DNA of 37,136 nucleotides from Candidatus Woesearchaeota archaeon (GTDB taxonomy: Archaea > Nanobdellota > Nanobdellia > Pacearchaeales > GW2011-AR1), in assembly GCA_964551115.1 (NCBI GenBank), contig CAZKBE010000003.1, positions 1-37,136 on the forward strand, written 5' to 3'. The notes beneath the pieces are model-generated. The model had not been told where the DNA came from, made no database searches, and saw only the letters and a program-made list of their open reading frames with translations. Shown one piece after another: positions 9,143 to 37,136 of the stretch. A program made the position numbers and the translations under genes. Every line of letters begins with the position of its first letter. The first letter of the stretch is position 1.

Positions 9143-9196
9143 ATAAATTATAAGTTTAAGGTATTTTTAAATGTTGTATTATTTGGAAAAATAAAA

Positions 9197-12923: not shown

Positions 12924-13035
12924 GTAGTTTTCATGCAAGCAAGCTTTATAAATATTTATCTTCGCAAACCTTCTTATTCAATCTAAAAAAAATACCCAAA
13001 AATAAAAAAGATTCAAAACTAAGATTCTACAAAAA

Positions 13036-17623: not shown

Positions 17624-18381
17624 TAGATATAACCTCCTGCCGGCCAAGGAAAGCTCTTGACAGAAAACTGATAGACAATATCTTCATTCTTTTCAGTTAA
17701 TGTATAAACCTTAATTTCTCCATCAATTCTTTGTTTATCTATAATAATATTAGGATAATAAAACATCTGAGTAGTCTGTTCACTATCTCCATAATATGTC
17801 TCAAATTGTATCAAGGAAGTTGCAACCATCAATAACTCATATAAATTAGTTTTATAAGTATATTTATACTTCTGTGTAAGAGTTGTTCCTAAACCGCTAG
17901 AAGCAGTTAAAGGTGCATCAAGTTTTATAACAACCCCCATAGGTTCAATAGAAATATCAAATTTAGCCGTACCTTTAGATACCTCATACCCTCTTCTAAC
18001 TAAATCACTTACAGCAGAGTCATAACACGCTTGAAACTCAGATTTCAAAATATTTGCCAAAGAATCCTCAAAAACATTTGTTAAAATAGGCGCTTGGTTC
18101 ACACAAGGAGTATAATAATCGTCAGTATAACACAAGAAGGTATAATTATTTCCCCCATACATGTGATTAAATTTAGGTCTTATAACTCCGGCAGTTAAAG
18201 CCAATTTTTTTATCTCAACATCTAATGATTTAGAAATACAACTTTCAAGAACAGGTACACCAGAATCTGAAGAAAAACCCCCAAGATTATAAAAATAAAA
18301 TAAAACACCAATAGCAACCACTAAAAGTATCGCTAGAACTATAAACAAAGTCAACTGCCCCCTTTTATCTTTCTTCACCAT
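17623..18381 (-). CDS. class III signal peptide adaptor protein, cassette 2 (252 aa)
   Basis: N-terminus MVKKDKRGQLTLFIVLAILLVVAIG. FLCYTDDYYTPCVNQAPIL is shared with the cassette-1 adaptor (FLCYSTEFYSPCIPQNPLL). Confidence 0.75.
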   Translation of the reverse strand: MVKKDKRGQLTLFIVLAILLVVAIGVLFYFYNLGGFSSDSGVPVLESCISKSLDVEIKKLALTAGVIRPKFNHMYGGNNYTFLCYTDDYYTPCVNQAPILTNVFEDSLANILKSEFQACYDSAVSDLVRRGYEVSKGTAKFDISIEPMGVVIKLDAPLTASSGLGTTLTQKYKYTYKTNLYELLMVATSLIQFETYYGDSEQTTQMFYYPNIIIDKQRIDGEIKVYTLTEKNEDIVYQFSVKSFPWPAGGYI

Positions 18382-18398
18382 GTTTTTAATACATTTTT

Positions 18399-18414
18399 AG
18401 TATTTATAAATACT
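18399..18414. promoter_or_regulatory. 16-bp palindromic TATA element agtatttataaatact upstream of cassette 2
   Basis: Perfect palindrome about 25-30 nt upstream of ATG 18381, in the 45-nt gap after the cassette-1 genes. Confidence 0.45.
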
Positions 18415-18426
18415 ATTATTCCCTCA

Positions 18427-19158
18427 TTAAAGTCTCTTTATTGGTTTAATTATTGTTGAACATGATAGAGGAGTATTAAATTTCTTATCTCGGCATTTGA
18501 TAAAGTAAATTTCTAAGGGTTTAGAGTCAAAGCTATGTTCTTTTGCAAGATACTTTGGAATTGTAGAATTAAATTCAAACCCGCAACCAATGGTTTGGTT
18601 TGTCTCATACATACACTCTGCTTCTTCGTCAGTAACAAGCCGTATAGTACCGTCTAGATTCATAGCTCTCAAAACTTGCGGAACAACATCATCAAAATAA
18701 ACAGTAAAATTAAATGTTTTATTTGCTGTATTTTTTGCTTCATCTTCACATAAAACTTCAATTTCATGTTCTCCTTGTGGAAGCGTTAACAATTGAGAAT
18801 GAACTTTTCCGCCAGTTTGAAGAAAATCATTATACATATCACTATAATTTTTCATCCTAAAACTACAAACTGCATCACCTAAACAACCTGAAGTTGAAAC
18901 AGATAAAGTAAAATTCTTTTCCTCAATAAAAGTATTAGAGTTTAGTAAAGAAATATCAAGACCATTAGAACAAACATTTATTTTATAATTTGTACTTATA
19001 AAATTAGCATTTCTAGGGTAATTTTCAGTCTCTTCTAAACCTACTTGATCCTTACATCTAAAATAAAGATTATTTTGTCCAATAGTTAAATTTCCTAAAG
19101 TAGCAAAACAACTCCATTCTCCAAAGTATGCCGAGTTCTCATCAGTTATACAAAACAT
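18427..19158 (-). CDS. C-terminal fragment (243 aa) of the cassette-1 giant protein, separated by a tandem duplication
   Basis: Its first 102 aa (MFCITDENS...CSFRM) are identical to the last in-frame residues of the 19167-22817 ORF. The remaining 141 aa align with the C-terminus of the 722-aa paralog (YFIKCRDKKFN versus FYVKCRDEFRN). It has no signal peptide of its own. Confidence 0.7.
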   Translation of the reverse strand: MFCITDENSAYFGEWSCFATLGNLTIGQNNLYFRCKDQVGLEETENYPRNANFISTNYKINVCSNGLDISLLNSNTFIEEKNFTLSVSTSGCLGDAVCSFRMKNYSDMYNDFLQTGGKVHSQLLTLPQGEHEIEVLCEDEAKNTANKTFNFTVYFDDVVPQVLRAMNLDGTIRLVTDEEAECMYETNQTIGCGFEFNSTIPKYLAKEHSFDSKPLEIYFIKCRDKKFNTPLSCSTIIKPIKRL

Positions 19159-19516
19159 TTGATGCCTTAATTCATCATATCCATCCTAAAACTACAAACT
19201 GCATCACCTAAACAACCTGAAGTTGAAACAGATAAAGTAAAATTCTTTTCCTCAATAAAAGTATTAGAGTTTAGTAAAGAAATATCAAGACCATTAGAAC
19301 AAACATTTATTTTATAATTTGTACTTATAAAATTAGCATTTCTAGGGTAATTTTCAGTCTCTTCTAAACCTACTTGATCCTTACATCTAAAATAAAGATT
19401 ATTTTGTCCAATAGTTAAATTTCCTAAAGTAGCAAAACAACTCCATTCTCCAAAGTATGCCGAGTTCTCATCAGTTATACAAAACATTTGATGCCTTAAT
19501 TCATCATATCCATCCT
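18853..19516. repeat. perfect 329-bp tandem direct duplication with 6-bp junction homology (catcct)
   Basis: 18853-19181 and 19182-19510 were compared base by base and are identical. catcct recurs at 18853, 19182 and 19511. Confidence 0.95.
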
Positions 19517-22500
19517 TACCCGAAGGAACATCATACTCATAATCAAATCTACACTCGGCCGGCTCATTTAAATATAAAATTAAATCAGAAGAATTTGATC
19601 CTTGTTTTAAATAAGAGTTAGTTTCTGGAGAAAATCTTCTTATTTCTGGCGGAGTCAAATCAGGTCCATCTTTTGTTTTTATTTGAACCACAAATTCAGC
19701 TTCATTTATCTGTCCAGCAAAATTCATACATCTGATATAATATTCATTTTCTTCTCCTTGAACGAGTCCTAGAGTTGAAGCCGAGCCGGCTGAAAAAGCA
19801 TTTAACTCCGCTTGATGATGTGTCCCTTCAGCTTTTCCAGTATCAGGATTAATAGAAGAAAACATTTCATATTTCATCTGAGAATAATCAGAAGTGTGTT
19901 CTGAATCTATTCTACAACTTGCAGGTTTATCTGTAATAATTCCAAAAGTCAAAGAAGTCCAAGCCGCAACTCCTTGACCAAGAGAACCTTCAATTCTAAA
20001 TCCATTATCCCTTACGGAAGAATATTCATTTCCTGGGCTAATAACTTCTTGCCAAGGCTTAATTTGTGCAGACCATATTTCATTTACAGAAGCACAATAA
20101 CCCGGTTCTCCATTCTCAATAAAATATTGACATCTTTGACCAAGAGACTTACATCTATATTCTGAACAAGGTCTAACATCGTTATTACATAAATCACAAT
20201 CTCCGATCTTTGGAGGCTGCCATGCTTCACAATTAAATTGCATAATGAAGTATTCTTGTTCATCATAGGAATTAAAGAATGCTTCATAAATTATATAGAT
20301 GATTGCAACGATTAATCCAACAGCCCCGAGTGAGGCCATAGAAAAAAAACTAGAACTGAATAGTGTTCCAAAGCTCGCACCTAAGGAAGTAGTTCCAAGA
20401 GTACTAGCTGCAACATTTACACCAACGGCATAACCAATAGCTCCCCCAACAGCTCCCATTAATTGCACAAAAGCCTGGGATTCTCCAGGACTCCAATCTT
20501 GATTTTTTGCAATTAAACCTCCTATTTGTCCGCCAAGGTAAGAACCAGCAATCGAAAAACCAACAGTAATGCCTGCAGATTTTAAACCTTGCAAGACATT
20601 AGATCCCATTGAAGTAGTTGGAGTTGGAGTTGGAGTTGAAGGACCATAAATAGGAGTAGTCGCCGGACCCGTTCCACCAAAATTATGTTGTATCCCTATT
20701 ACCTGTACACCGCCCACTCCCAAACTATTTACACCAGAAGAAAGAGAACCTACACTACTTGCTGCACTAAACCATCCCATACTCGCACCAAGGGTTAAAC
20801 CACCTAAAGTTAACGGACCAGCAAGGCCCATAAAATCATTGTATGATTCACCACCGGAATAGACATTCGCACCTCCAGCCATATCTTTTAAATCAACAAC
20901 ACCGCCTGAAACTTCCCCCATTGTTCCGGCAGTATCTGCATCACTAGCCATTAAATTCCCTGAAGAAGACTTGATCTGATCAAGTTTAGCCAAAACAGGT
21001 GTTACGCTTTTAATAGAATTTATATATGTAGAAGAAAGGACATAAGCAGAAGAATTATAGTCTTCATGAGTTTTTCCTTTACTATCAATCTTAACTCTTT
21101 CAACAGAAAAACCCGGGTAATCTTCATTTACAAAACCCTGAAGATTAGTTGAAACACCACAGCTTCCAAGGGATCTACAACGTTCATTCATCGCAGCAAG
21201 CAAAGCAGGTAAATCCTTTCCTTCTATTGCAGAATGAACGCCATTAATATTACATTCCCAATTAAGACGATTATCTTCCCAAGAATCACAACCACCTAAA
21301 AGAGTACACTCTCGATTTATCTGACTAACACAAGTAAAACTCCCTAAACTACAAACAGCATTTGTTTCTTCATTACTTCCCCCATAATTCGCAGAAGACT
21401 TCTGTTGTTTACCAGAACCGACGATAGAACCAGTTGTTGTCCAAAATTGAAATCCGGGGGTAAATTTTGGAACACAGTGAGCTAAGACCTTATTCTGATC
21501 TTTTCCTAAATCACCAATTGATCCCTGTTCGGCATTTGTTTTTTCAGGATCAAAACCTGCTAAGAATTCATTATCGCTTCTTTTCAAATTATCTTCCCCA
21601 TATAGATCATTAAACATAATACACTGAGGATTTTCATCACAGTTTTTCTTAACTTCTGAATAAGATTCTGCATCATTTGCATTAATACAGCTCCGCCAAT
21701 CATTAACTAAACATTTTGCTTCAGTAAAACCAAAAGAAGTATCAGTACTCTGTGCACAGATTTCTTGACCAAAATCAGCACAACCTTCAAGAGAAACTTG
21801 CCCTTCAAAACAATTTGCTAAAAAATGTCTAGAACCAACAGGCGCAACACCTGCTAAAGGATTAAAATCATAAACACACCAGCTTTCTCCATGCTTTCTT
21901 TCCCCACAATGTAAACTCTTACAAGTATAATCTCCATAAGTAGGTTTTGTTGTAACTCCTTGTTCATGTTCAACACAAATGCTTCCTTGTAAATATTCAC
22001 AATTCCCGCAACTAGCGTCTTCATTAGCACAAGAATCTTTTGGATCAATTGGTCTTTCCCAATAACTCTGATCGTTAATTTTAGAAGAATCATAAACATT
22101 GGCAACATTTCCACAACTATCTAAAAAATAAACTTGGTCTTTACCATCCACACAAGTTGTTTCTCTAGACTTCTGACAAACAGTATTAAGTTCAGTAGAA
22201 GTACACAAATAATTTTCTTTAAAATCTCCGCCCTGACAATTTTTCCTAGTTGTAAAAACACATTTTTTCTCCCCAGAGTAATCTCCTGAATCGCTTAAAC
22301 ATGCTCCTTGTTCTTCAAGACCTGTATATTTCTCGCAACTTTCGCCAGGAGAGATTGAAATAAAATTCTTCTCAAAATTAAATTGATTTGAAAGCAAAGT
22401 ACATTCACGAGAATTTGTCAATGAAACCTGATCACCCATAACACAACAACCAAGCTGACATTGAGGGATATTACAAGAAGCATCACTTGACCAATTTCCC

Positions 22501-22817
22501 CCATTAGAAATACACTTATCCTTGGGAGCTCGCATAGAACAAGAACCAGTATCAACGCCATAACAACAACCAAGTTGACATTGATCAACCACATTACATC
22601 CGGTTCCAATTAAAGAATCTTTACATAGATCAGACTGAAATAGAGGGATATCCTGGCAAATTGCTCCTTCTTTAGTCTCTAAACAACAACCCTTTGGACC
22701 TTCATCCTGAGCAGAAACTAAAGGAGTGGAATCCGGAGAAATTAAATAAGCAAAAGAAAAAGTTGCAAATAACATAATACTTAATTCAAATAACCCAATT
22801 AACTTCTTAGTTCTCAT
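19167..22817 (-). CDS. giant secreted Cys-rich membrane-embedded surface protein, cassette 1 (N-terminal 1216 aa, truncated by a frameshift at the duplication)
   Basis: Signal peptide MRTKKLIGLFELSIMLFATFSFAYL. Triple CQLGCC-type Cys knots. PSTPTPTPTT linker, then a Gly-rich hydrophobic block. FNCEAWQPPKIGDCDLCNNDVRPCSEYRCKSLGQRC follows. GGGGTG lies 5 nt upstream of ATG 22817; the ORF-track start at 22844 is TTG. The ORF ends ...CSFRM-DMMN* at the duplication junction. Confidence 0.8.
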   Translation of the reverse strand: MRTKKLIGLFELSIMLFATFSFAYLISPDSTPLVSAQDEGPKGCCLETKEGAICQDIPLFQSDLCKDSLIGTGCNVVDQCQLGCCYGVDTGSCSMRAPKDKCISNGGNWSSDASCNIPQCQLGCCVMGDQVSLTNSRECTLLSNQFNFEKNFISISPGESCEKYTGLEEQGACLSDSGDYSGEKKCVFTTRKNCQGGDFKENYLCTSTELNTVCQKSRETTCVDGKDQVYFLDSCGNVANVYDSSKINDQSYWERPIDPKDSCANEDASCGNCEYLQGSICVEHEQGVTTKPTYGDYTCKSLHCGERKHGESWCVYDFNPLAGVAPVGSRHFLANCFEGQVSLEGCADFGQEICAQSTDTSFGFTEAKCLVNDWRSCINANDAESYSEVKKNCDENPQCIMFNDLYGEDNLKRSDNEFLAGFDPEKTNAEQGSIGDLGKDQNKVLAHCVPKFTPGFQFWTTTGSIVGSGKQQKSSANYGGSNEETNAVCSLGSFTCVSQINRECTLLGGCDSWEDNRLNWECNINGVHSAIEGKDLPALLAAMNERCRSLGSCGVSTNLQGFVNEDYPGFSVERVKIDSKGKTHEDYNSSAYVLSSTYINSIKSVTPVLAKLDQIKSSSGNLMASDADTAGTMGEVSGGVVDLKDMAGGANVYSGGESYNDFMGLAGPLTLGGLTLGASMGWFSAASSVGSLSSGVNSLGVGGVQVIGIQHNFGGTGPATTPIYGPSTPTPTPTTSMGSNVLQGLKSAGITVGFSIAGSYLGGQIGGLIAKNQDWSPGESQAFVQLMGAVGGAIGYAVGVNVAASTLGTTSLGASFGTLFSSSFFSMASLGAVGLIVAIIYIIYEAFFNSYDEQEYFIMQFNCEAWQPPKIGDCDLCNNDVRPCSEYRCKSLGQRCQYFIENGEPGYCASVNEIWSAQIKPWQEVISPGNEYSSVRDNGFRIEGSLGQGVAAWTSLTFGIITDKPASCRIDSEHTSDYSQMKYEMFSSINPDTGKAEGTHHQAELNAFSAGSASTLGLVQGEENEYYIRCMNFAGQINEAEFVVQIKTKDGPDLTPPEIRRFSPETNSYLKQGSNSSDLILYLNEPAECRFDYEYDVPSGKDGYDELRHQMFCITDENSAYFGEWSCFATLGNLTIGQNNLYFRCKDQVGLEETENYPRNANFISTNYKINVCSNGLDISLLNSNTFIEEKNFTLSVSTSGCLGDAVCSFRMDMMN

Positions 22818-22819
22818 AA

Positions 22820-23593
22820 TTACACCCCTGCCGGCAAAACGCAAGTTCGTATTGCAAATTTAATTTCATTATCAAAACCCCTCAAACCAACACTATAAAC
22901 CTTTGTTTGGTCTCCTCCCCGATTACGTGTAATCACAAGATCCCTATTTATCGCCTGCCAAGTCATATGATTAAACTCACAAAAGACAGACTCGTAATTA
23001 ACAATAGTTTCAGCAGTTCTAAGTAATTTAGGTAAACTACTAGGATAATTACCCGATCGTGTTGAAATTAATATAGATTCATCTCCGCGATCCATTCTTA
23101 TAGAAGTCTTAGCATCATAAGAAATATCTAATTCATTAAAGGTTAAAGACAGTGTAAAACTAGAATATTCAAAAGAATAACCCTTATTTTCATAATCTTC
23201 CTTAAGGGTTAAAATACATCTGGATAATTCACGAGAAACATAATTTTCCATATTTTTTCTTACAGACTCGATTAATAAAGGATTTTGAGGAATACAAGGA
23301 GAATAAAATTCAGTAGAATAACATAAAAAAGGCATGGATTGTAAATTATACTTATATAATAGTGAACTGCCTCCAAGGGATGAAAAAGACTTAAAAAATT
23401 CCTCTTCAGAATCGGCTATCGCTTTTTCAATACAAGTAGAAATATATTCTGCAGGAGAAGAAGTCTTTTGTCTAAAGGGATTTAATTCATTTTTAGACAT
23501 AGTAAAAAAGAATATAATAGCTACAACAAGTATTATGCCCAAAATCACAAATAAAGTTAATTGGGCTTTCCTTGAAAAGATCACAACATCCAT
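22820..23593 (-). CDS. class III signal peptide adaptor protein, cassette 1 (257 aa)
   Basis: N-terminus MDVVIFSRKAQLTLFVILGIILVVAIIFF. Core shared with the cassette-2 adaptor. The stop lies 2 nt before the giant gene's ATG. Confidence 0.75.
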   Translation of the reverse strand: MDVVIFSRKAQLTLFVILGIILVVAIIFFFTMSKNELNPFRQKTSSPAEYISTCIEKAIADSEEEFFKSFSSLGGSSLLYKYNLQSMPFLCYSTEFYSPCIPQNPLLIESVRKNMENYVSRELSRCILTLKEDYENKGYSFEYSSFTLSLTFNELDISYDAKTSIRMDRGDESILISTRSGNYPSSLPKLLRTAETIVNYESVFCEFNHMTWQAINRDLVITRNRGGDQTKVYSVGLRGFDNEIKFAIRTCVLPAGV

Positions 23594-27838: not shown

Positions 27839-28198
27839 ATGAAAACAGGAAGAAAATTATCTGGTGGAAGATATAAGAAAGCAAAGAAGAGAAAGAAATA
27901 TGAAATAAAGGGCCAGACCAGAATTGTAAAACTTGGCGAGAAAAAAACAAAATTAATGAGAATGCTAGGCGGAAAAAGAAAAACAGTTTCTCTTTCTCAA
28001 AATAAGATTAATGTTGTAAAGAATGGAAAGGCTAAAGTAGCGGATATTAAGAATGTTATTGAAACACCTTCGAATAGATTCTTAGCTAGACAAAATATAT
28101 TAGTTAAAGGAGCAATTATAGAAACAAGTTTAGGAAAAGCAAAAATAACAAATAAGCCTAGTCAAGAAGGCAATGTACAAGGTATTTTAATAGAATAA
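27839..28198 (+). CDS. rps8e: 30S ribosomal protein S8e
   Basis: GRKLSGGRYKKAKKRKKYE...LGGKRK...ETPSNRFLARQNILVKGAIIETSLGKAKITNKPSQEGNVQGILIE matches the archaeal S8e pattern. Confidence 0.85.
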   Translation: MKTGRKLSGGRYKKAKKRKKYEIKGQTRIVKLGEKKTKLMRMLGGKRKTVSLSQNKINVVKNGKAKVADIKNVIETPSNRFLARQNILVKGAIIETSLGKAKITNKPSQEGNVQGILIE

Positions 28199-28238
28199 TT
28201 TTTCTGCAAATATTTACCGTCGGTGATAAATTTTAGAA

Positions 28239-28272
28239 CCGAAAGCTTTAAAAAGCCGAAAGCTTTAAAAAG
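28239..28272 (+). promoter_or_regulatory. two exact tandem copies of a 17-bp BRE/TATA unit (ccgaaagctttaaaaag) upstream of tfb
   Basis: Copy 1 is 28239-28255 and copy 2 is 28256-28272. TTTAAAAA starts 32 nt (copy 1) and 15 nt (copy 2) upstream of ATG 28279. Confidence 0.55.
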
Positions 28273-28278
28273 CTTACG

Positions 28279-29241
28279 ATGTCCTCTCCAAAAACTTGTC
28301 CTGAATGCGGAAGCTCAAATCTTATTTTTGATGAAGTTAAAAGTGAAATAATTTGTGGGGACTGTGGTCTAATTGTAGAAGAAAAAATGGTCGATACGAC
28401 CCATGAATTGAGAGCATTTGATAAAGGTGAAAAAAGAGGGAGAGGCGGTGCACCAATTTCTATGCAGAAATTTGATAAAGGATTAACAACAAATGTTGGA
28501 GAAATCTCAGACATATATAAATTAGACTCCGGTGCACAAACAAGAAAGTATTTGAGGATTAGACAATGGCAAGAAAGAGTATCAACGTCAATAGAAAGAA
28601 ACTTAAGACAAGCGATGGCCGAATTAAGAAAAGTATCTTCATATTTAGACTTGCCCCCAGTCGTTAGAGAAGAAGCAGCAAGAGTTTATAATTTTGTTTT
28701 ACAAAGAGGATTAGTAAGAGGAAGAAGTATGGAATCAGTAATAGCTTCATGTATTTACGCTGCTTGTCGTTCATATAATATCCCAAGAACACTTGATGAA
28801 ATTTCAATTGCATCCGAAGTTGAAAGAAAAGAAATAGGAAGAACTTACAGATTTATAATTCGTAAAATTGGAATAAGACCTCAACCAAGTTCGCCTAGAG
28901 ACTATATTTCAAGATTTGGATCTACATTACATTTATCTCCAAAGGTACAACATGGAGCACACGTAATACTTCAAAAAGAAGAAATCTCAGAACTTATGTC
29001 TGGAAGAGGTCCTGCAGGAATATCTGCAGCGGCATTATATGTTTCTGCATTACTTAACGATGAAAAAAAGACACAAAGAGAAGTTGCAGATGTTGCAGGA
29101 ATAACAGAGGTTACAATAAGAAATAGATACAAAGAATTATTAGATAAGCTTAATCTAGAAGAAAAAATAAAGATGAAAGAAGCTGAAAAAGACAGAATAA
29201 AAAAAGAGCTTAAAGAATCTAAAAAATTAAAGAAGGAATAA
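28279..29241 (+). CDS. tfb: transcription initiation factor IIB (TFB)
   Basis: Zn ribbon CPECGSSNLIFDEVKSEIICGDCG, a B-reader/linker, and two cyclin folds (..ASCIYAACR.., ..AAALYVSA..ITEVTIRNRYKEL). It also has an unusual ~35-aa Lys/Glu-rich C-terminal tail. Confidence 0.95.
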   Translation: MSSPKTCPECGSSNLIFDEVKSEIICGDCGLIVEEKMVDTTHELRAFDKGEKRGRGGAPISMQKFDKGLTTNVGEISDIYKLDSGAQTRKYLRIRQWQERVSTSIERNLRQAMAELRKVSSYLDLPPVVREEAARVYNFVLQRGLVRGRSMESVIASCIYAACRSYNIPRTLDEISIASEVERKEIGRTYRFIIRKIGIRPQPSSPRDYISRFGSTLHLSPKVQHGAHVILQKEEISELMSGRGPAGISAAALYVSALLNDEKKTQREVADVAGITEVTIRNRYKELLDKLNLEEKIKMKEAEKDRIKKELKESKKLKKE

Positions 29242-29243
29242 CT

Positions 29244-29993
29244 ATGACTTTCCTTATTATAACCAAGGAAAAGGATACTCCTTTACCGAAATGTCTTCAA
29301 CAAATAACTAACAAAACTGTTATTTGGAAAAATAAACTGTCTAAAGAACGCTTTAAAAAAGAGGACATAATAATTACTCTTGGAGGCGATGGAACATTTT
29401 TATCCGCATCTCATTTTCTAACAAATCAACTAATACTGGGCGTGAATACTAACCCTCAAAAAAGTGAAGGACATCTAACTACTGCTAATTTAACAAATTT
29501 AGAAAATAAACTAAAACAAATATCTAATAAAAAAATAAGAATAAAAGAATATACACGAGAAAATGTAAAAATATTCAAAAAGGATATGTGTATAACAACT
29601 GAAAACGCACTTAACGAAACATATTTTGGAAATCTAAATCCTCATCACCCCTCAAATTACGAGATCATTTATAAAAATAAAAGGGAATCTCAAAGAAGTT
29701 CAGGCGTACTAATATCTACAGGGACAGGTTCTACCGCATGGTATAAGGCAATGAATGGATGGAGATATGATAAAACAAAAAAACAACTAAGGTTTAGAAT
29801 AAGGGAACTGTTTACAGGAAGAATTTTTAAAGCAAAAATAAAGAAAGGCAAAATAAATCCCCAAGAAAAGCTAATAATTATATCTAGAATAAATCATGGC
29901 ATTCTGGCAATTGACTCAATAAGAACCTATAAAATTCATCAAGGAGATAGAATAGAAACTTCGATAGGTGAACCATTAAGAGTCATACAATAA
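29244..29993 (+). CDS. nadK: NAD kinase
   Basis: ITLGGDGTFL (GGDG), NETYF, and ISTGTGSTAWYKAMNG (NADK STPTGSTAY-type motif). It starts 2 nt after the tfb stop. Confidence 0.8.
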   Translation: MTFLIITKEKDTPLPKCLQQITNKTVIWKNKLSKERFKKEDIIITLGGDGTFLSASHFLTNQLILGVNTNPQKSEGHLTTANLTNLENKLKQISNKKIRIKEYTRENVKIFKKDMCITTENALNETYFGNLNPHHPSNYEIIYKNKRESQRSSGVLISTGTGSTAWYKAMNGWRYDKTKKQLRFRIRELFTGRIFKAKIKKGKINPQEKLIIISRINHGILAIDSIRTYKIHQGDRIETSIGEPLRVIQ

Positions 29994-30040
29994 TTTATCT
30001 TCCTAAAGCTTTTTAAGTCTATAAAGTATAACCATTTTGT

Positions 30041-30123
30041 GGGGAGATGCCGGAGTGGTCAAACGGGCCAGACTCAAAATCTGGTAGCGCAAGCTTACGG
30101 GGGTTCGAATCCTCCTTTCCCCA
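30041..30123 (+). tRNA. tRNA-Leu (CAA), 83 nt, type II with long variable arm
   Basis: Hand fold: GGGGAGA TG CCG GAGTGGTCAAA CGG G CCAGA CTCAAAA TCTGG TAGCGCAAGCTTAC GGGGG TTCGAAT CCTCC TTTCCCC A. The discriminator is A73. TTTTTAAG lies about 29 nt upstream. Confidence 0.9.
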
Positions 30124-30157
30124 TAAGATTCTAAATTAAAACAGAGTTAAATTATTT

Positions 30158-33100
30158 TTAAATAGTTGAAGAAGGATCAAAGCTATATGTAGAAGTAGAA
30201 ATTGCTTCTGTAGGAAGACCACTAATTATTGGCTCTGGATTAGTTTGTCCTTTTTTTACAATAGTTATAACCAGTTTTCCATTTGTTAAAGTATCAATTT
30301 TCTTAACCTCATAAACATTTCCAGCTTTATTCAATAAATGACCCACCTTTAACTCCCCAAGAGTAGAAGGAATTTTAAATTCTGGAGGAGTTATACTAGT
30401 AGAAACAGAAGGTAATGAAACAGATAAAGCAGCTGGTGGAGATTTATCTAAAGCTTTCAAGTAAACAATTTTTTCATAAAGTTTATATTTCCAATAAACG
30501 GCTTGGGCTTGGTAAAGATTAGAATAACCTCTTGTATTTAATTCCGTAATGTTTCCTAGAATGAAAGGAGTTTGATCAATAAGATTCTCTTTACTAAGTG
30601 TTACAATCATTTTCTTTATCTCAATAATTTTATCCTGACTAGCAGGTTCAGACATAGTCCCATCCTGTTTATTTAAGAGTTCTAAATTTTTCTCTGCCTG
30701 GGCGATAGTTCCCGCAACATCTAAGATCTGTCCAGCACTTTGTTTAACAGATTCTTCATCAAGCCAGCAAGTAATAGCCTTATCTCCACAATAACCTGCA
30801 GGTTTCCAATTAGCTTGTTTCGCTGTTCCCTCACCCGGATTAACACTTGAACAAATTCTAACAATACCTTGTAAATCAATTCTCGGATCAATCACATTAG
30901 TAACTGCTGCTTGAGGGTTTATTGAAGTAAAACCAACAACAGAAGCACTTCCCTGTTGACATTCTTTCTCAGTAGTTATCTCCGTTTGAGCAGCTTGCTT
31001 TGCTCTATATGCCTCTGTGAGCTTATTCACTCCAAAATCTGTAGTAACTTGTTTGAAACCACATTCTTCGTTTCCATTGATAGAAACACAAAGTTCCTTA
31101 TAGCCTGCAGGAGCTGTAAAGTCTTTAGAGACCTGTTTCTGATCTCCTTTCGCAATAAACCCTGTTTCAACATTAATGTAAGGTATTCCAGCATAATAAC
31201 TTGAAGTTGGGGGATTCTTTAGATAAATAGAATAACTAACTCCTTGGTCATTTCCAGCAAAAATATGTGCAAAAACCTTATACTGAGATGTTGGAGGAAC
31301 TGTTGCACCAGTATGTGGAACCTCTTGGAACTCACCATAAAATTGATGCGGAGATTCAGGAGCAAGTAAGGAATCTAACGCTTCAGCCGTTGTAGGGAAA
31401 CTGGTTCCAACAAAAGCGTTACAAACTTCAGTACCCATTTCCTGAACATTTCCTAATTTAAATGCAGTAAACGAATTCTTGCCATAGGTATTCTTAAAAT
31501 AATCTAAACTAGACTCCATATTACTCCAAGATTTCTGGAAAGTCATATATTCTCCTCCGCCAGCTTTTTGTTTACCTGTCAAAGCAGAGAAAATATTAGG
31601 CAAGAAGTTACTCATTAAGGGTTGGAACTGATTCCAAAATAAATTACAAGTATAGATAGCAGTCATATAATCGCACATACCAACATAAGCTCCGGTCTTG
31701 GCATTCTCATTCAAACAATCTCTTTGAGCCTTCAAAATGGAAGTATAAGCTTCAAGTCCTGCATGAACCCCTGTTAAACAAATAGGAACATAAACATCCC
31801 CTCCAAATAATTTGAAATTAGGTAAACATAAAACTAAACTCCCAATAATACCTGATTGTATAACGCTTGAAACCTTATTAGTCCCACCAAGATCACATCT
31901 TGAAACAGGACACATAACCGGATCGCAAACATTAAACATAAATTCACATTCACCCGGACTCATGAAGTCTTGACATTGCTCAATTGGTCCATCTTCTCCA
32001 ACCGGACTTCCCCTATCTGCAGTAACTTCTTCTCTTCCAGAAATACGAATGGTAATCTTGCCTTTAGAAGAATATTGTCTTCCAGCCTGTCTTAAAGCCT
32101 CTTGAGCATCAGTAATCAATTTATCCATGTCTTGAACACTTAAGATACAACCAGCAATATTCCGTATTTCACTAGTCTTTTGATTAATGTTTACAGAAGT
32201 ACAAGCATCGTCCGGAGTTTGCCTCAAATCTCTTCCTACATTACAAATCGAAAAAGTTTGAGGAATGGCAGAAGAAGTATAACCTTGAGCCTGATCAGAA
32301 AATAATCCTCCCTGAGAATTAGATATCTTAACATACCACCCAATTACCTTATCAAATGGAACAGAAGCTGCAAGCCCTTTTGAACTTCCACTATCATAAT
32401 AACTAACTGTTGGTTTAATATTTGCATTTCTACATTGTCCAGGAGAAATAAAAACAGAATTGACTAAAACACCATAATCCTCGCCAGAAGTTACTTGAAC
32501 CCATTTATCCCCTGTCAAATTAAAAACCTGACTAACTCTCCTCTTTCCACCATCTTCGCTAGTTAAACTAATTAAATATTTCTTGTCCTTAAGATACATC
32601 ATTTGAACAGGAGTTTCAGAAGTTAAACCATTAAGATTAGGAATAATATCTTTTACAAATTTACCATTCCAAACATACTCTTCAGTATTTGCGGTTCGAA
32701 CAATAATTCCCCCTTCTTGAGGATTATCGGTTAAAACTTTTGTGTCTCTGACTCGGTAAACAAGAGGTAATAACTTTGCGTCTCGATCGCCTTTAACTTT
32801 AATCTTTAATTGAGGAGAAATTTCAGAATTATCCCTTAATTTCTCATAAAGCATATAAGCTCGAATCTCATCCCAAGAACTTAAATTTCCAGCACCTAAA
32901 TTTACAAAACCAGCACCCGTACTAATATTTTCAATAAGTTTTGCAGAGAATTTATCTTTAACAAATTTAGTAATATTCTTTTCAGAACCAATCTCCTTAT
33001 TTATTGATTCAATGGCAGCAGTATATGCTGCAGTATCCTTATTAATTTTAGAACTCTGAGTATTATAACAAGCATCAAGTGTTTGGGGAGTTCCAAAGGT

Positions 33101-35452
33101 AGTAGTCTCTCTGTGAGTCTCACAATAATCTCTCCAAACAGTCATAACCTCTTGCCTAGCCATCGATTGACCAGAAGAACCAGTGACAAGATTTTTTAAA
33201 TTTAAAGCTAGATTTGTAGCTAAACATGCACCTTTTAATCCTTTAATTACCTCAGCAAGTTTAGCATTTCTCTTCTCAAGCTCTACAATGGTTTTATTTA
33301 ACTTTTCAGCCTTCTCGGAAGACTTATTAGGATTTAGTTTTATTAATCTTTGTTCTATACCAATTTTATATGTAAAATTAGCTTCAGTAGTAGTCTTACC
33401 TGCCTCAGATAAAAGTTCAATTTTAGCAACAGTTTGAACATTAATATCTGAAACTTCAAGTAGGTATTCGCTTCCATTAATCTTTCTCTTTAAAGTTTCA
33501 TCGAGTCTTAAGGTAACCTTTCCAGAACCCTCACCAGCCCGCTTAAATTCATTTCCATCTTTAATCAAAACATCAAATTCAGCCCGGTTAGGATAAATTT
33601 TATCTACAATAAAAGAGATATCCTTTATCGTAAAATTCTGTCCTTCTTCAAGAGACCCCTTATAAGCCCCACCAATATTTAATCCAACTTTTTTTGTTCC
33701 AGATTCAACAGCCTTAAAAGATTTTAATTGTACTGCATACATATCTTTATTTATTTCAAAAACAGTTCTAGCATTTGTAGTATCATAATTCCTTTCAGAA
33801 TCTAAACGAGACTCAATTAAAGACTTATAAGAAGAATCAGAATAAGTTATTAAAAATTCTTGCATTAGTGCAATTTTATCTCCATCATAACCTAAAGCAG
33901 AAAGCAGATCAATTTGTTCAAGCATTGCAACTTCTCCAAGCCTATTTAGATCTCCTCGAACCTCCTTATAATTTTCAACTAACTCCTTCACAGCGTTATC
34001 TGCACTTTCCAAGTCCTTAGAAATAGATTCTGCGCTATCTGGAACATCCGATACAACCTCCCCGTCTAGACCAGTAAAACCATTAAATATAATCTTACCC
34101 TCAGAAGATTCTTTCTCGCTACCTTGTTTAAGTACAATTAAATTATCTCCTGCCCTAAAACCTGAAAAAGTATTCAAACTAGATTCTATCTTTTCAATCA
34201 TACCAATATCCTCCTTATTTTTTTCCTGAATATCTGATATTTGTTTAGAAAGCAAAGTATAAACTTCGGATTTAATTTCTTTTGAAGAACCTAGTAAAAC
34301 AATAATTCCATCATCTTTAATCTTTTCAGAATAACCTAAATACCATTTGTATTTTTTATCTTGAGTGATATTTCCCTCAAAAACCAACTCTCCAACAATA
34401 GCTTCTTTCTTAGAAGTTCCAACAGAAATATTGGCTGTAAAAGACCCAAGTAAACTTAAATCTATATCTCCTGCCCCAGAACAACGTAACTTAAGAGTTC
34501 CAGAGCTTCCCCCAAATATTCTCAAATCTGCAACAGTACATCTACCATTTAAAATCTTAGAACCTTTTCGAACCCAAACATCTTCTCCTTCAACGTTTAA
34601 TAAAGCACTATCGTCTGGATAAGTTAGTTCAGAAAGTTTTAATTTAAAATTAGATTTACAGTAAAAACCTGGAAAATATATCAAGGAACTAGTCTCTCCT
34701 TCTTTTAAAACGACTTCACGAACTAATTTTCCCTCACCCGTATAAACCCCTATCCTAGAACTTTTACTATCAGAATCAAGTAATTTCAAATACCCTTTTC
34801 CATTCCAAAACGAAGCAGTGTTCAAATTAGATTCCTCGCCCAATAAGTCTTCTCCTTGTAAAAATAAAACTGCACCTCCCACGCCATATGCTTTCTCGGA
34901 ATCATAATTTACTCTAGCAGTCAAGTTTCCTGCAACAAATTTAGGCATTGTTGCTTCATTTGGATTCTTTTTCAAAGTAATTACAACATAACCTACATTA
35001 TTATATAATGGATCTCCTTCAAGAGTATTATAACTCCTTAATCCTGCTCTAGAGGGATAAAAACTAACTCCGAGCACCCCTTCGGGCATCTTACCACTAA
35101 AACTAATAGACTTAATTGCAGAAACTTTAATCAAAGGATTTATTCTTAATGAAGAAAGTTGACACATAACCTGAACATTTCTCTCAGCAAGTAAGTCGCT
35201 TCTAACAACCATCGGCTCACAACCAGCCGGAGGAATCATCAAAACAAAATCAGTTCCTTGTTCGCACATAGATTGATCAAAAGAACTACCCATACCATCC
35301 CAAAAACTAGAATCCCCAGAACCATAAATGCTATTAGTAGATGGATTAGTATACTGAACATTATTAGTAGAACTAGTAAAATAACTAGTAGCCGAACTAC
35401 CCAAACCGATTAATAAAAAGAATACAAAAAGTAAATAAATTTTATTAGTCAT
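30158..35452 (-). CDS. giant secreted protein (1764 aa); giant partner of cassette 4
   Basis: Signal peptide MTNKIYLLFVFFLLIGLGSSATS. ATGA overlap with the upstream adaptor-family gene. A Cys cluster plus hydrophobic segments lies at aa ~1160-1290 (CQDFMSPGECEFMFNVCDPVMCPVSRCDLGG...IIGSLVLCLP). No family recognised, and no obvious similarity to the other giants. Confidence 0.85.
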   Translation of the reverse strand: MTNKIYLLFVFFLLIGLGSSATSYFTSSTNNVQYTNPSTNSIYGSGDSSFWDGMGSSFDQSMCEQGTDFVLMIPPAGCEPMVVRSDLLAERNVQVMCQLSSLRINPLIKVSAIKSISFSGKMPEGVLGVSFYPSRAGLRSYNTLEGDPLYNNVGYVVITLKKNPNEATMPKFVAGNLTARVNYDSEKAYGVGGAVLFLQGEDLLGEESNLNTASFWNGKGYLKLLDSDSKSSRIGVYTGEGKLVREVVLKEGETSSLIYFPGFYCKSNFKLKLSELTYPDDSALLNVEGEDVWVRKGSKILNGRCTVADLRIFGGSSGTLKLRCSGAGDIDLSLLGSFTANISVGTSKKEAIVGELVFEGNITQDKKYKWYLGYSEKIKDDGIIVLLGSSKEIKSEVYTLLSKQISDIQEKNKEDIGMIEKIESSLNTFSGFRAGDNLIVLKQGSEKESSEGKIIFNGFTGLDGEVVSDVPDSAESISKDLESADNAVKELVENYKEVRGDLNRLGEVAMLEQIDLLSALGYDGDKIALMQEFLITYSDSSYKSLIESRLDSERNYDTTNARTVFEINKDMYAVQLKSFKAVESGTKKVGLNIGGAYKGSLEEGQNFTIKDISFIVDKIYPNRAEFDVLIKDGNEFKRAGEGSGKVTLRLDETLKRKINGSEYLLEVSDINVQTVAKIELLSEAGKTTTEANFTYKIGIEQRLIKLNPNKSSEKAEKLNKTIVELEKRNAKLAEVIKGLKGACLATNLALNLKNLVTGSSGQSMARQEVMTVWRDYCETHRETTTFGTPQTLDACYNTQSSKINKDTAAYTAAIESINKEIGSEKNITKFVKDKFSAKLIENISTGAGFVNLGAGNLSSWDEIRAYMLYEKLRDNSEISPQLKIKVKGDRDAKLLPLVYRVRDTKVLTDNPQEGGIIVRTANTEEYVWNGKFVKDIIPNLNGLTSETPVQMMYLKDKKYLISLTSEDGGKRRVSQVFNLTGDKWVQVTSGEDYGVLVNSVFISPGQCRNANIKPTVSYYDSGSSKGLAASVPFDKVIGWYVKISNSQGGLFSDQAQGYTSSAIPQTFSICNVGRDLRQTPDDACTSVNINQKTSEIRNIAGCILSVQDMDKLITDAQEALRQAGRQYSSKGKITIRISGREEVTADRGSPVGEDGPIEQCQDFMSPGECEFMFNVCDPVMCPVSRCDLGGTNKVSSVIQSGIIGSLVLCLPNFKLFGGDVYVPICLTGVHAGLEAYTSILKAQRDCLNENAKTGAYVGMCDYMTAIYTCNLFWNQFQPLMSNFLPNIFSALTGKQKAGGGEYMTFQKSWSNMESSLDYFKNTYGKNSFTAFKLGNVQEMGTEVCNAFVGTSFPTTAEALDSLLAPESPHQFYGEFQEVPHTGATVPPTSQYKVFAHIFAGNDQGVSYSIYLKNPPTSSYYAGIPYINVETGFIAKGDQKQVSKDFTAPAGYKELCVSINGNEECGFKQVTTDFGVNKLTEAYRAKQAAQTEITTEKECQQGSASVVGFTSINPQAAVTNVIDPRIDLQGIVRICSSVNPGEGTAKQANWKPAGYCGDKAITCWLDEESVKQSAGQILDVAGTIAQAEKNLELLNKQDGTMSEPASQDKIIEIKKMIVTLSKENLIDQTPFILGNITELNTRGYSNLYQAQAVYWKYKLYEKIVYLKALDKSPPAALSVSLPSVSTSITPPEFKIPSTLGELKVGHLLNKAGNVYEVKKIDTLTNGKLVITIVKKGQTNPEPIISGLPTEAISTSTYSFDPSSTI

Positions 35453-37136
35453 TCTAAGCTCACCCCTAAAGGAGAATCCTCAAATTTAATATAATTTTCA
35501 TTTATGTCCTCAAGTTTTGTTGGAACCGAAAATAAAGGAACATTAATTAAAATCTTTTTACTATTTCTTAAAGAATTGTCATCGAAAAATTCCAAAGAGT
35601 TTCCGCCACCAATTAAAACCTGGTCTAAAGATTGAGCAGGAATCACATTACTAAAACATTTAGTTTCGGTAGAACCGGTTAAAGCGCCTAAACCACTAGA
35701 AGGCATTTCGAAGCATTCCTCTTCGGTTCGTGCGGGAAGCGTAATAGTAGAGTTTGTAAAGACCTGCACAGTAACATCATAAACTCCTTCTGCCAGATCA
35801 ACTTTTCTGTTCTCAGGATACATTATGCTACTAGACATATCATCTGAACTAAATCTAACAAGAGCATTACCAGCAATAGCACCAAGATCCACATTGATCG
35901 AATAAATCTTTCTAGCAAGAATTTCTGCCTTTTGAACTTGATTAGAAGAAACAATAAAGCTTCCAGGAGCATAACCTTCAGATCTCGCTTCAACAATTCC
36001 ATTAACACACATGGGAACATTTGTCTTAAGATGACCATTAGTAGTTTCACCTAAAAAACATCTCTCCCCAAGACAACTAAAACTTAACGCCGAAGCAACG
36101 CCTTTGTCATCAAAATCTTTAACAGAAATCTCCATTTCTTGATTTCTATTCTTACACACCACCTCTTCCTGACCAAAATATTCTCCAATAGGGGTATCTT
36201 TTTTAATCTGATTTCTCTCTACAAAAACAACCAAAGGAAATTGAAACATTTCTCTTTCATCACCAATCTGAACAAGAACCGGTAAGATAACATCATAAAT
36301 TAAATTATACTCTACAAAACAAAATCCAAGCATGTTCATACCAGGTTGCAAACCCACAGGTTCTGCAAAGTCTTTCCCATAAATCTCAATTTTTGTAGGC
36401 CAAGAACTAGAATAGAGAAAATTAACTGGCTCATTTACATTTATTCCAATATCCTTAACAAAATAACTGTCTGCACTAGAAGAATAACTTCCCTTTAACT
36501 TCACAAATGCAAAATTATCTGCCATAGCCAAAGAAATATTCTGCCTTATTTGAGGGAAATTAAAAAATAAAGGAGTACAACCAACTTCAAAGCCTCTTGT
36601 GGGTGCATTTAAAGCAAGAGTATCTAAAGCATAACTTTCCAAAAATTTCTCTTCTTTTTGATAGTCGTATATCTCCTTAGCTAAACTATAAAGACGACCA
36701 AGTTTAGATCTAACAGTTAAACGATGTTGTCCAAATCTATAAAAATCCTCATCTAAACTAAATCTCAATTCATTTTTAACTTCTACGTTAATCTGAGAGT
36801 TCTCTATTTCAACGGTTACACTTCCTGCATCAACATCAACCAAATAGCCACGAGATTCAAAATCGCCAAAGTCACAATTCTGGAGATCTTCTTGAATATA
36901 TAATTGCAAATCGGTTTCCATGCTTCTTATTGTAGGAACTTGTTCACGAACAATATTATTCCCAGAAACATAAAACCAATGAGGTATTGCTACCCCTAAA
37001 AGGTCTAATTGGGAAGAAGAAGGCATATAAGGAGATCCGGCTTCAAATTCGGGAGTTTCTATATATCCTCCCTGGGACTCTAAAATACTAACTCCTTCAA
37101 GAGTTATAGATTCAATACAAGAAAGATAATAAGAAT
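35449..37136 (-). CDS. enlarged adaptor-family protein, cassette 4 (5'-partial; more than 560 aa)
   Basis: The reading frame stays open from the track's ATG (37026) to the window edge. Hand translation of 37027-37136: SYYLSCIESITLEGVSILESQGGYIETPEFEAGSPY. That segment and the following ...SMETDLQLYIQEDLQNC...SRGYLVDVDAGSVTVEIEN align with the 12147-12923 adaptor (ECLEEVTLDGIYFNSLQGGYY, LEDELNKYIEDNLNFC, ARDYELSFGDNLDVKSNI). The true N-terminus lies beyond the window. Confidence 0.75.
   Translation of the reverse strand, partial: SYYLSCIESITLEGVSILESQGGYIETPEFEAGSPYMPSSSQLDLLGVAIPHWFYVSGNNIVREQVPTIRSMETDLQLYIQEDLQNCDFGDFESRGYLVDVDAGSVTVEIENSQINVEVKNELRFSLDEDFYRFGQHRLTVRSKLGRLYSLAKEIYDYQKEEKFLESYALDTLALNAPTRGFEVGCTPLFFNFPQIRQNISLAMADNFAFVKLKGSYSSSADSYFVKDIGINVNEPVNFLYSSSWPTKIEIYGKDFAEPVGLQPGMNMLGFCFVEYNLIYDVILPVLVQIGDEREMFQFPLVVFVERNQIKKDTPIGEYFGQEEVVCKNRNQEMEISVKDFDDKGVASALSFSCLGERCFLGETTNGHLKTNVPMCVNGIVEARSEGYAPGSFIVSSNQVQKAEILARKIYSINVDLGAIAGNALVRFSSDDMSSSIMYPENRKVDLAEGVYDVTVQVFTNSTITLPARTEEECFEMPSSGLGALTGSTETKCFSNVIPAQSLDQVLIGGGNSLEFFDDNSLRNSKKILINVPLFSVPTKLEDINENYIKFEDSPLGVSLE

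What the first reader, a model, noticed from the sequence alone, without database searches (positions are those of the whole stretch)
30158..37136. Fourth, divergent cassette: an enlarged adaptor-family protein (>560 aa, runs off the window) ATGA-coupled to a 1764-aa orphan giant
The ORF-track entry 35449-37026 is not the full gene. The frame stays open to base 37136. The extra residues (SYYLSCIESITLEGVSILESQGGYIE) match the conserved post-signal core of the 12147-12923 adaptor (ECLEEVTLDGIYFNSLQGGYY). Two more blocks are also collinear: LQLYIQEDLQNC with LNKYIEDNLNFC, and SRGYLVDVDAGSVTVEIEN with ARDYELSFGDNLDVKSNI. So the same adaptor family recurs 6.5 kb away from the first island, again overlapping (ATGA, 35449-35452) a signal-peptide giant. 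That giant has no visible similarity to the other giants. A conserved adaptor paired with variable cargo is what a modular presentation or secretion system would predict.
Basis: partly seen in the sequence, partly recalled or inferred. Interest (0 to 1): 0.65.

Follow-up and report, generated by a model that had tools for sequence, protein, structure and literature searches.

The report
Pilin-like protein paired with giant protein
This is a strictly conserved two-gene unit of tiny uncultured archaea (Pacearchaeota/Woesearchaeota): a 608-residue pilin-like protein translationally coupled to a 1764-residue secreted giant, which most likely forms a cell-surface attachment device.

Summary
The reading frame upstream of the giant stays open to the window end.

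Its first ~230 residues are homologous to the three ~255-aa "adaptors" of the window. With the signal and membrane helix removed, hhalign still gives probability 98.8%, E 5e-17. About 380 further residues form beta-sandwich domains.

The ATGA overlap with the giant is real.

"Orphan giant" is wrong. The 1764-aa protein belongs to a large family of 1700-2900-aa proteins in Pacearchaeota and Woesearchaeota. Some members carry C-terminal peptidoglycan hydrolase modules; the window copy has none.

In 79 of 79 informative genomic loci a giant homologue lies directly downstream of a 608-family gene. So this is a fixed cognate pair, not a shuffled adaptor and cargo. The short adaptors are likewise usually followed by large signal-peptide proteins (65 of 79).

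Neither protein matches Pfam, NCBIfam or solved structures.

Most likely the pilin-like protein docks the anchorless giant at the cell surface or on a type IV filament. That step is inferred, not shown.

The parts
35449..37136 (-). 3' 1688 nt of the gene for a 608-aa class-III-signal (pilin-like) protein, P0001. The start codon and 47 codons lie beyond the window end. The missing N-terminus reads MMVNSKKGQVTLFIVLAIIVVVGIVGFFIYQ.
   Evidence: Open frame to the window end. Full-length protein and overlapping contig L001, 100% identical over 3750 nt.
36586..37134 (-). Globular domain shared with the ~255-aa adaptor family (P0001 residues 48-230).
   Evidence: BLASTP E 2e-5. hhalign without the signal gives probability 98.8%, E 5e-17. 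HMM hits in both directions.
35452..36585 (-). C-terminal extension of about 380 aa that the short adaptors lack. It contains the rest of an alpha/beta region and about three beta-sandwich domains with invariant cysteines.
   Evidence: AlphaFold2 model with mean pLDDT 82.9 and its secondary-structure map. Only generic beta-sandwich matches in Foldseek. Invariant Cys columns.
35449..35452 (-). ATGA stop/start overlap between the two genes. A GGGGTGA Shine-Dalgarno-like motif lies at 35460-35466.
   Evidence: Sequence read directly. A 4-nt overlap recurs in 31 of 79 related loci.
30158..35452 (-). Gene for a 1764-aa secreted giant, P0121, a member of a family specific to Pacearchaeota and Woesearchaeota. 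It has no membrane anchor and no recognisable enzyme domain.
35384..35452 (-). Sec-type signal peptide of the giant (residues 1-23).
   Evidence: This is the only hydrophobic segment in the protein. Sequence.
34463..35275 (-). Conserved N-terminal domain of the giant (residues ~60-330), with many invariant positions including C63, C78, C97, C265 and C305.
   Evidence: Alignment A3 of 35 homologues. Not modelled.
30743..32455 (-). Most conserved, cysteine-rich core of the giant (residues ~1000-1570; motif ECQDFMSPxxCxxMFNVCDPVxCPxSRCDxGG).
   Evidence: Invariant columns in A3. The AlphaFold2 model of residues 565-1764 has pLDDT 67.5. No Foldseek match in PDB at E below 1e-3.
30161..30742 (-). 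Variable C-terminal tail of the giant (residues 1571-1764): helices followed by a small beta domain. Relatives carry SLT, amidase, peptidase or deacetylase modules at this end; the window copy has none.
30040..30124 (+). tRNA-Leu(CAA) bounding the cassette downstream. A tRNA-Val(GAC) bounds it upstream, outside the window.

Best explanation
The two genes encode a cognate surface-display pair.

The 608-aa protein is made with a class III (prepilin-type) signal. After cleavage at KKG|Q, its conserved hydrophobic N-terminal helix holds it in the membrane or in the core of a type IV pilus-like filament. A flexible linker follows, then the adaptor-family domain, then a stalk of beta-sandwich domains.

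The 1764-aa giant is exported by Sec and has no anchor of its own. It is translated from the same mRNA by stop/start coupling and is captured by the pilin-like partner. It is thereby held on the cell surface or at a filament tip, where it contacts other cells.

In relatives the same core carries peptidoglycan-degrading modules at its far end. This points to contact with bacterial cell walls.

Shown: the class III signal, homology to the short adaptors, gene coupling, strict pairing across genomes, and the extracellular character of both proteins.

Inferred: physical binding of the two proteins, processing by a prepilin peptidase, incorporation into a filament, and a role in host or cell attachment.
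For: - Class III-type N-terminus: consensus KKGQVTIFII..., with Q9 at 90% or more and F13 invariant across 48 homologues.
- Homology of residues ~48-230 to the ~255-aa class-III family, independent of the signal.
- ATGA overlap with an SD-like motif.
- A giant homologue lies immediately downstream on the same strand in 79 of 79 loci with room. 31 have 4-nt overlaps and about 50 have junctions within -8 to +1 nt.
- 536 species-representative genomes encode the 608 family.
- The giant has a Sec signal, no other hydrophobic segment and 30 cysteines, many invariant. The 608 family has about ten invariant cysteines. Both features fit extracellular proteins.
- The AlphaFold2 model shows an N-terminal helix, a low-confidence linker, an alpha/beta domain and then beta-sandwich domains.
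- Relatives of the giant carry C-terminal SLT, amidase, M15 peptidase or deacetylase modules.
- Short adaptors are followed by large proteins with hydrophobic N-termini in 65 of 79 metagenomic cases.
- The window also holds three short pilin-like genes at 7638-9697 on the same strand as the other cassettes.
- Literature: large adhesin-like proteins are common in archaeal type IV filament loci (bioRxiv 10.64898/2026.04.22.720090). Large extracellular SLT-domain proteins of Pace- and Woesearchaeota were proposed to attach to bacterial walls (PMC8204110).
Against: - No type IV filament ATPase, platform protein or prepilin peptidase lies in the window or within 10 kb in L003 and L004.
- There is no Pfam or NCBIfam pilin hit above threshold. 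The only hint is PRK10574 at E 0.0038, far below its cutoff.
- Foldseek finds no pilin or PilY1-like structure.
- The window giant has no hydrolase or known adhesin domain.
- The predicted linker between the N-terminal helix and the globular domain differs from classical pilins, where the helix packs on the head domain.
- No interaction was modelled or measured.
Confidence: 0.5

Rival explanations
1. The pair is a two-component cell envelope, analogous to the S-layer. The giant forms the outer canopy and the 608-aa protein is its membrane-anchored stalk, as with SlaA/SlaB of Sulfolobales.
For: - The pair is strictly conserved and stands alone.
- It sits in a housekeeping neighbourhood next to TFB and ribosomal protein S8e in the window and in L003/L004.
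- It is very widespread: 536 species representatives.
- The giant has no anchor, while the partner has one membrane helix plus beta-sandwich stalk domains.
Against: - The anchor is an N-terminal class III signal shared with a family that pairs with several other giants.
- There is no structural match to solved S-layer proteins.
- Variable C-terminal wall-hydrolase modules suggest an effector rather than a lattice subunit.
- Sequence conservation is high for an S-layer protein: 31-58% identity to the window protein across the alignment.
Confidence: 0.2
2. The pilin-like protein is part of a type II secretion-like pseudopilus. It escorts or pushes the giant through the envelope and then releases it.
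For: Class III signal together with tight coupling to a very large Sec substrate. The same adaptor family is found with several cargo families.
Against: No secretion ATPase or platform gene is linked. A 380-aa stalk of beta-sandwich domains is more typical of display than of a piston. No archaeal precedent was found in the papers searched.
Confidence: 0.12
3. The two proteins are only co-transcribed surface proteins. They have no direct physical or functional dependence on each other.
For: No interaction data exist. Neither protein has an assignable domain.
Against: 79 of 79 loci show adjacency across pairs that share only 37-62% identity with the window protein. Overlap coupling is frequent. 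The parallel rule for the short paralogues is hard to explain without a functional link.
Confidence: 0.1

Closest known systems
The ~255-aa class-III-signal 'adaptor' family of the same window (12147-12938, 17623-18381, 22820-23593), which comprises 4112 clusters at 50% identity
   Same: Same N-terminal K/R-G/A-Q-[LV]-T-[LI]-F signal and helix. The following ~180-residue domain is homologous. The gene position is the same: directly upstream of, and often overlapping, a large signal-peptide protein gene.
   Different: It is 608 aa rather than ~255 aa, with an extra ~380-aa region of beta-sandwich domains. It has a different, dedicated partner family. It usually stands alone rather than in a multi-cassette island.
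[quoted passage not shown] 2021, PMC8204110)
   Same: Same lineages, same size range (up to ~3000 aa) and secreted. The window giant shares its whole core with SLT-bearing proteins; for example P0166 aligns at 36% identity over 91% of the query.
   Different: The window protein lacks the SLT domain and any other hydrolase domain. I infer that the two families are the same; this was not checked by accession. The passages of that paper retrieved here do not mention the obligatory pilin-like partner gene.
Bacterial type IV pilus tip complexes: minor pilins with PilY1/PilC (own knowledge), and the adhesin-like proteins of archaeal type IV filament loci (bioRxiv 10.64898/2026.04.22.720090)
   Same: A Sec-secreted, anchorless large protein is encoded next to prepilin-type proteins and is thought to be displayed by them.
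   Different: There is no sequence or fold similarity to PilY1. No assembly ATPase or platform gene is nearby. The pilin-like partner is itself very large.
Modular pilins, i.e. pilins with grafted functional modules such as Streptococcus sanguinis PilB/PilC (own knowledge)
   Same: A class III signal and N-terminal helix are followed by extra globular modules.
   Different: Different folds. Here the functional giant is a separate polypeptide.
SlaA/SlaB two-component S-layer of Sulfolobales (PMC10903991)
   Same: A two-gene unit of a large canopy protein and a smaller membrane-anchored stalk protein.
   Different: SlaB is anchored by a C-terminal helix rather than a class III signal. No structural match was found.

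Membership tests
~255-aa class-III-signal adaptor family (window 12147-12938 and paralogues) | N-terminal K/R-G/A-Q-[LV]-T-[LI]-F motif followed by a ~20-residue hydrophobic helix | tested here: met
   P0001 starts MMVNSKKGQVTLFIVLAIIVVVGIVGFF. The motif is conserved in 48 homologues.
~255-aa class-III-signal adaptor family (window 12147-12938 and paralogues) | Homologous globular domain after the helix | tested here: met
   hhalign without signal/TM gives probability 98.8%, E 5e-17. The A5 HMM hits the signal-less window ORF at 1.5e-11. The A1 HMM hits the three adaptors at 1e-14 to 1e-24.
~255-aa class-III-signal adaptor family (window 12147-12938 and paralogues) | Single-domain size of about 250-270 aa | tested here: not met
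   The protein is 608 aa, and all 120 listed homologues are 595-674 aa. It is therefore a distinct enlarged subfamily.
~255-aa class-III-signal adaptor family (window 12147-12938 and paralogues) | Gene lies directly upstream of a large signal-peptide protein gene | tested here: met
   ATGA overlap. 79 of 79 loci for the 608 family. 65 of 79 for the short family.
Archaeal type IV pilin-like proteins (class III signal peptide proteins) | Short basic leader ending in G/A, then a hydrophobic helix | tested here: met
   Sequence. The AlphaFold2 model has a helix at residues 5-33.
Archaeal type IV pilin-like proteins (class III signal peptide proteins) | Match to a curated pilin or class III signal model (Pfam, NCBIfam) | tested here: not met
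   No Pfam family. The only NCBIfam hit is PRK10574 at E 0.0038, 17 bits against a cutoff of 138.
Archaeal type IV pilin-like proteins (class III signal peptide proteins) | Cleavage by a prepilin (class III signal) peptidase | not testable with these tools
   This needs biochemistry or N-terminal proteomics.
Archaeal type IV pilin-like proteins (class III signal peptide proteins) | Linked assembly ATPase and platform genes, and incorporation into a filament | tested here: inconclusive
   None were found in the window or within 10 kb in L003 and L004. The rest of the genome could not be examined.
Large SLT-domain extracellular proteins of Pace-/Woesearchaeota (fam00969, PMC8204110) | Homologous giant secreted core | tested here: met
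   More than 145 homologues. SLT-bearing P0166 and P0177 align over most of the query.
Large SLT-domain extracellular proteins of Pace-/Woesearchaeota (fam00969, PMC8204110) | Murein lytic transglycosylase (PF01464) domain | tested here: not met
   The window protein has no Pfam family at E up to 1. In relatives the domain lies C-terminal of the core.
PilY1/PilC-type pilus tip adhesins | PilY1 C-terminal beta-propeller or any sequence or fold match | tested here: not met
   No Pfam hit, no PDB sequence hit and no Foldseek hit for residues 565-1764. Residues 1-564 were not modelled.
SlaA/SlaB-type two-component S-layer | Structural similarity to solved S-layer subunits | tested here: not met
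   No such match in the Foldseek PDB searches. The giant model has only moderate confidence.

The most novel reading that the evidence does not exclude
Pacearchaeota and Woesearchaeota use a dedicated, so far undescribed family of prepilin-type docking proteins (about 4000 sequence clusters). Each subfamily is matched to its own giant Sec-secreted partner. Together they build the organelles by which these uncultured, host-dependent archaea seize other cells. The 608-aa/1764-aa pair would be the universal core version, with bacterial wall-degrading heads added in some lineages.
Probability: 0.3. Interest if true: 0.75.

Novelty: new variant of a known kind. Interest (0 to 1): 0.55.

Why it matters
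Pacearchaeota and Woesearchaeota are abundant and uncultured, and are thought to live attached to other cells. How they attach is unknown.

The giant family was noted before only for its occasional wall-degrading domain. This work shows that it is always encoded with, and usually overlap-coupled to, a prepilin-type partner. That partner is related to a much larger family of adaptors that sit in front of other giants.

The result is a concrete, testable model: a pilin-like dock plus an anchorless giant. It also gives two sequence markers for finding the attachment apparatus in metagenomes, metaproteomes and tomograms.

Tried and rejected
- An exact look-up of the giant found no contig on record. 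The extension came from the partner protein instead.
- Three contig look-ups failed for technical reasons and were repeated.
- Pfam and NCBIfam scans of both proteins and of the other cassette proteins gave nothing above threshold.
- Profile searches of PDB sequences gave only noise: coiled-coil matches for the giant and HisF at E 0.002 for the partner.
- Foldseek of the 608-aa model against PDB and BFVD found only generic tandem beta-sandwich proteins with TM-scores of 0.17 or lower. These included the B. anthracis TIE adhesin, phage baseplate and tail proteins, and carboxypeptidase-regulatory-like domains. I rejected them as evidence of specific relationship.
- Foldseek of giant residues 565-1764 gave no hit at E below 1e-3.
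- A link between this giant and the other giants of the window was rejected: BLASTP found nothing and HMM E-values were above 1.
- A mobile-element or viral origin was rejected. The pair sits in conserved synteny with TFB and S8e in distant relatives.
It was rerun with a narrower alignment.
Full report
**Setting.** The window has about 32% G+C. It encodes archaeal markers: transcription factor B at 28279-29241 and ribosomal protein S8e at 27839-28198 (same neighbours with Pfam labels). All close homologues of the two genes come from MAGs labelled Pacearchaeota, Woesearchaeota or Nanoarchaeota. The organism is therefore a DPANN archaeon of that group.

**Checking the observation.**
- The minus-strand frame that ends with the TGA at 35449-35451 has no stop up to base 37134. 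This gives 561 codons beginning SYYLSCIESITLEGVSILESQGGYIE. The ORF list shows only the part after an internal ATG, 35449-37026.
- The stop overlaps the start of the next gene as ATGA at 35452-35449. A GGGGTGA Shine-Dalgarno-like motif lies 8 nt upstream.
- The downstream gene (30158-35452) encodes 1764 aa. Its N-terminus is Sec-type (MTNKIYLLFVFFLLIGLGSSA), there is no other hydrophobic segment, and it has 30 cysteines.

**Recovering the N-terminus.**
- A protein search returned a 608-aa protein, P0001, 100% identical to the partial product.
- It is encoded on a 6678-nt public contig, L001, that matches the window at 100% over 3750 nt and extends it by 2928 nt.
- The protein begins MMVNSKKGQVTLFIVLAIIVVVGIVGFFIYQ. 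This is a short basic leader ending in G, then Q and a ~22-residue hydrophobic helix. That is the class III (prepilin-type) pattern seen in the window's short adaptors: KRAQLTLF, KRGQLTLF, RKAQLTLF.
- Upstream lie a TATA-like TTTATAAATA, a tRNA-Val gene and a divergent uvrA. Downstream of the giant lies tRNA-Leu. The unit is thus a two-gene operon.

**Is the similarity to the adaptors real?**
- BLASTP against the 12147-12938 product gives 23% identity over 159 residues, E 2e-5.
- Against the 22820-23593 product E is 3e-4. Against 17623-18381 the result is not significant.
- A profile of the three window adaptors, searched against 1.84 billion representatives, found 4112 clusters at E up to 1e-3. 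The top 150 are all about 250-330 aa.
- hhalign of a 56-sequence profile of that family (A5) against a 48-sequence profile of the 608 family (A1) gives probability 99.8%, E 1.3e-29.
- After cutting away signal and membrane helix from both, probability is 98.8% and E 5e-17 over 162 columns.
- Plain HMM searches agree in both directions. These include E 1.5e-11 for the window ORF that lacks the signal.
- P0001 residues 1-230 are therefore an adaptor-family module. Residues 231-608 are an addition.

**Structure of the 608-aa protein.**
- AlphaFold2 with the 48-sequence alignment gave mean pLDDT 82.9.
- The model has a helix at 5-33, a low-confidence linker at 34-43, an alpha/beta region to about residue 360, and then beta-sandwich domains to the C-terminus.
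- Foldseek against PDB and BFVD found only generic multi-beta-sandwich proteins at TM-scores of 0.17 or lower.
- About ten cysteines are invariant in the family, as expected for an extracellular protein.

**The giant is not an orphan.**
- The protein search found at least 145 homologues of 1644-2970 aa at 31-58% identity, mostly over more than 90% of the query.
- About one in seven of the 120 listed carries a Pfam domain for a cell-wall hydrolase or a related module.
- In four examples these domains are SLT, Amidase_2 or Amidase_3, Peptidase_M15_4, polysaccharide deacetylase and DUF1615. All lie C-terminal of the shared core, from residue 1645 onwards.
- The window protein has the core only.
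[quoted passage not shown] I infer that the families are the same but could not check accessions.
- Conservation is concentrated in residues ~60-330, ~690-800 and ~1000-1570. The last region includes a cysteine-rich motif, ECQDFMSPxxCxxMFNVCDPVxCPxSRCDxGG.
- AlphaFold2 of residues 565-1764 reached only pLDDT 67.5. It shows beta-sandwiches, long helical hairpins, a poorly defined helical cysteine-rich region and a small C-terminal beta domain.
- Foldseek found nothing at E below 1e-3, and PDB sequence profiles found nothing.
- Neither BLASTP nor the family HMM links it to the other giants of the window.

**The pair is fixed.**
- A scan of one genome per species found 536 genomes with a 608-family gene.
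- In the 80 loci kept, plus two found by protein look-up, a giant-family ORF lies immediately downstream on the same strand in 79 of 79 loci with enough sequence. The other three are cut by contig ends.
- 31 junctions are 4-nt overlaps, and about 50 lie within -8 to +1 nt.
- In two distant relatives the pair sits next to TFB, and in one also next to S8e, as in the window.
- No type IV filament ATPase or platform gene appears within 10 kb of those loci or anywhere in the window.

**The wider rule.**
- In metagenomic loci found with the short-adaptor profile, 79 adaptor genes have at least 600 nt downstream.
- Of these, 47 are followed within 150 nt by a complete ORF of 500 aa or more. Two size classes dominate: ~530-660 aa and ~1200-1370 aa.
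- A further 18 are followed by an ORF cut by the contig end. Nearly all of these downstream ORFs have a hydrophobic N-terminus.
But each subfamily keeps its own partner.

**Mechanism.** The best reading (confidence about 0.5) is a display pair.
- The prepilin-type protein is processed.
- It is held by its conserved N-terminal helix in the membrane or in a type IV filament.
- It binds the co-translated, anchorless giant and exposes it.
- The hydrolase heads in relatives point to contact with bacterial walls.
- Binding, processing, filament incorporation and attachment are all inferred.

Rival readings:
- A two-component envelope or S-layer analogue (0.2). It is favoured by ubiquity and the housekeeping context. 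It is disfavoured by the class III signal shared with multi-cargo paralogues, the variable enzymatic heads and the lack of structural matches.
- A pseudopilus-type secretion escort (0.12).
- Mere co-transcription (0.1), which fits poorly with 79 of 79 adjacency.

**Comparison and novelty.**
- In function the pair resembles minor-pilin/PilY1 tip complexes and the adhesin-like proteins of archaeal type IV filament loci (bioRxiv 10.64898/2026.04.22.720090).
- It fails every sequence or fold test for membership in those families.
- I rate it a new variant of a known kind. The giant family was seen before. In the papers I searched and the passages I read I found no mention of its obligatory prepilin-type partner, nor of that partner's kinship with a family of about 4000 clusters.

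Noticed in passing
window 18853-19152 and 19182-19481: There is a perfect 300-nt direct repeat with 329-nt spacing, which is not a multiple of 3. It makes the last ~110 residues of the 1225-aa giant (19167-22844) 95% identical to the start of the 243-aa ORF (18427-19158). The two ORFs look like one gene of about 1355 aa split by a tandem duplication or an assembly error. Intact relatives of this size (1200-1370 aa) follow short adaptors in metagenomes.
   Followed up: partly
window 7638-9697 (-): Three short genes (179, 324 and 166 aa) have pilin-type N-termini: YKRAQFEIQQMAFML..., KEKKGEFNFVWLFAI... and NKKGDINLSFGVIF.... They lie directly downstream of the first cassette island on the same strand and have no Pfam or NCBIfam match. 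They may be the filament subunits of the system.
   Followed up: partly
window 15608-23593 (-); loci L085, L092, L105, L110, L116, L117, L119, L136, L144, L147, L155: One arrangement recurs in many metagenomic contigs: adaptor, then a ~1250-aa giant, then adaptor, then a ~550-aa protein. It matches the window's 22820-23593/19167-22844 and 17623-18381/15608-17647 cassettes. That island is therefore a conserved double cassette and not a local oddity.
   Followed up: partly
window 27839-30124; loci L003 and L004: Synteny is conserved in relatives only about 40% identical: the pilin-like gene and giant sit next to TFB (and S8e in L004). In L004 a Peptidase_M64 gene follows the giant. In the window, an NAD kinase gene and tRNA-Leu lie between the pair and TFB.
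   Followed up: partly
L003 1-2870 (upstream of the pair in a Pacearchaeota contig): Three same-strand genes precede the pair. They encode a fragment rich in N-glycosylation sites and Ig-like segments, a 161-aa membrane protein, and a ~410-aa protein with a weak WxLIP_HBD hit and a C-terminal membrane helix. They may be further surface components. They are absent upstream of the window copy, where tRNA-Val and uvrA lie.
   Followed up: no
L005 and L006 (contigs CAZJUG010000004.1 and CAZJUG010000012.1): The same MAG carries the pair on two contigs with identical coordinates and scores. This is probably redundant assembly rather than a true second copy.
   Followed up: no
window 13036-15204 and 19167-22844 (-): The 722-aa protein and the C-terminal half of the 1225-aa giant share 28% identity over ~530 residues, including the motif CDLCNxxxxPCSEYRCKSLGQxC. 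The 679-aa protein shares its cysteine-rich N-terminal ~375 residues with the 1225-aa giant at 35% identity. The giants of the first island are thus mosaics of shared modules.
   Followed up: partly
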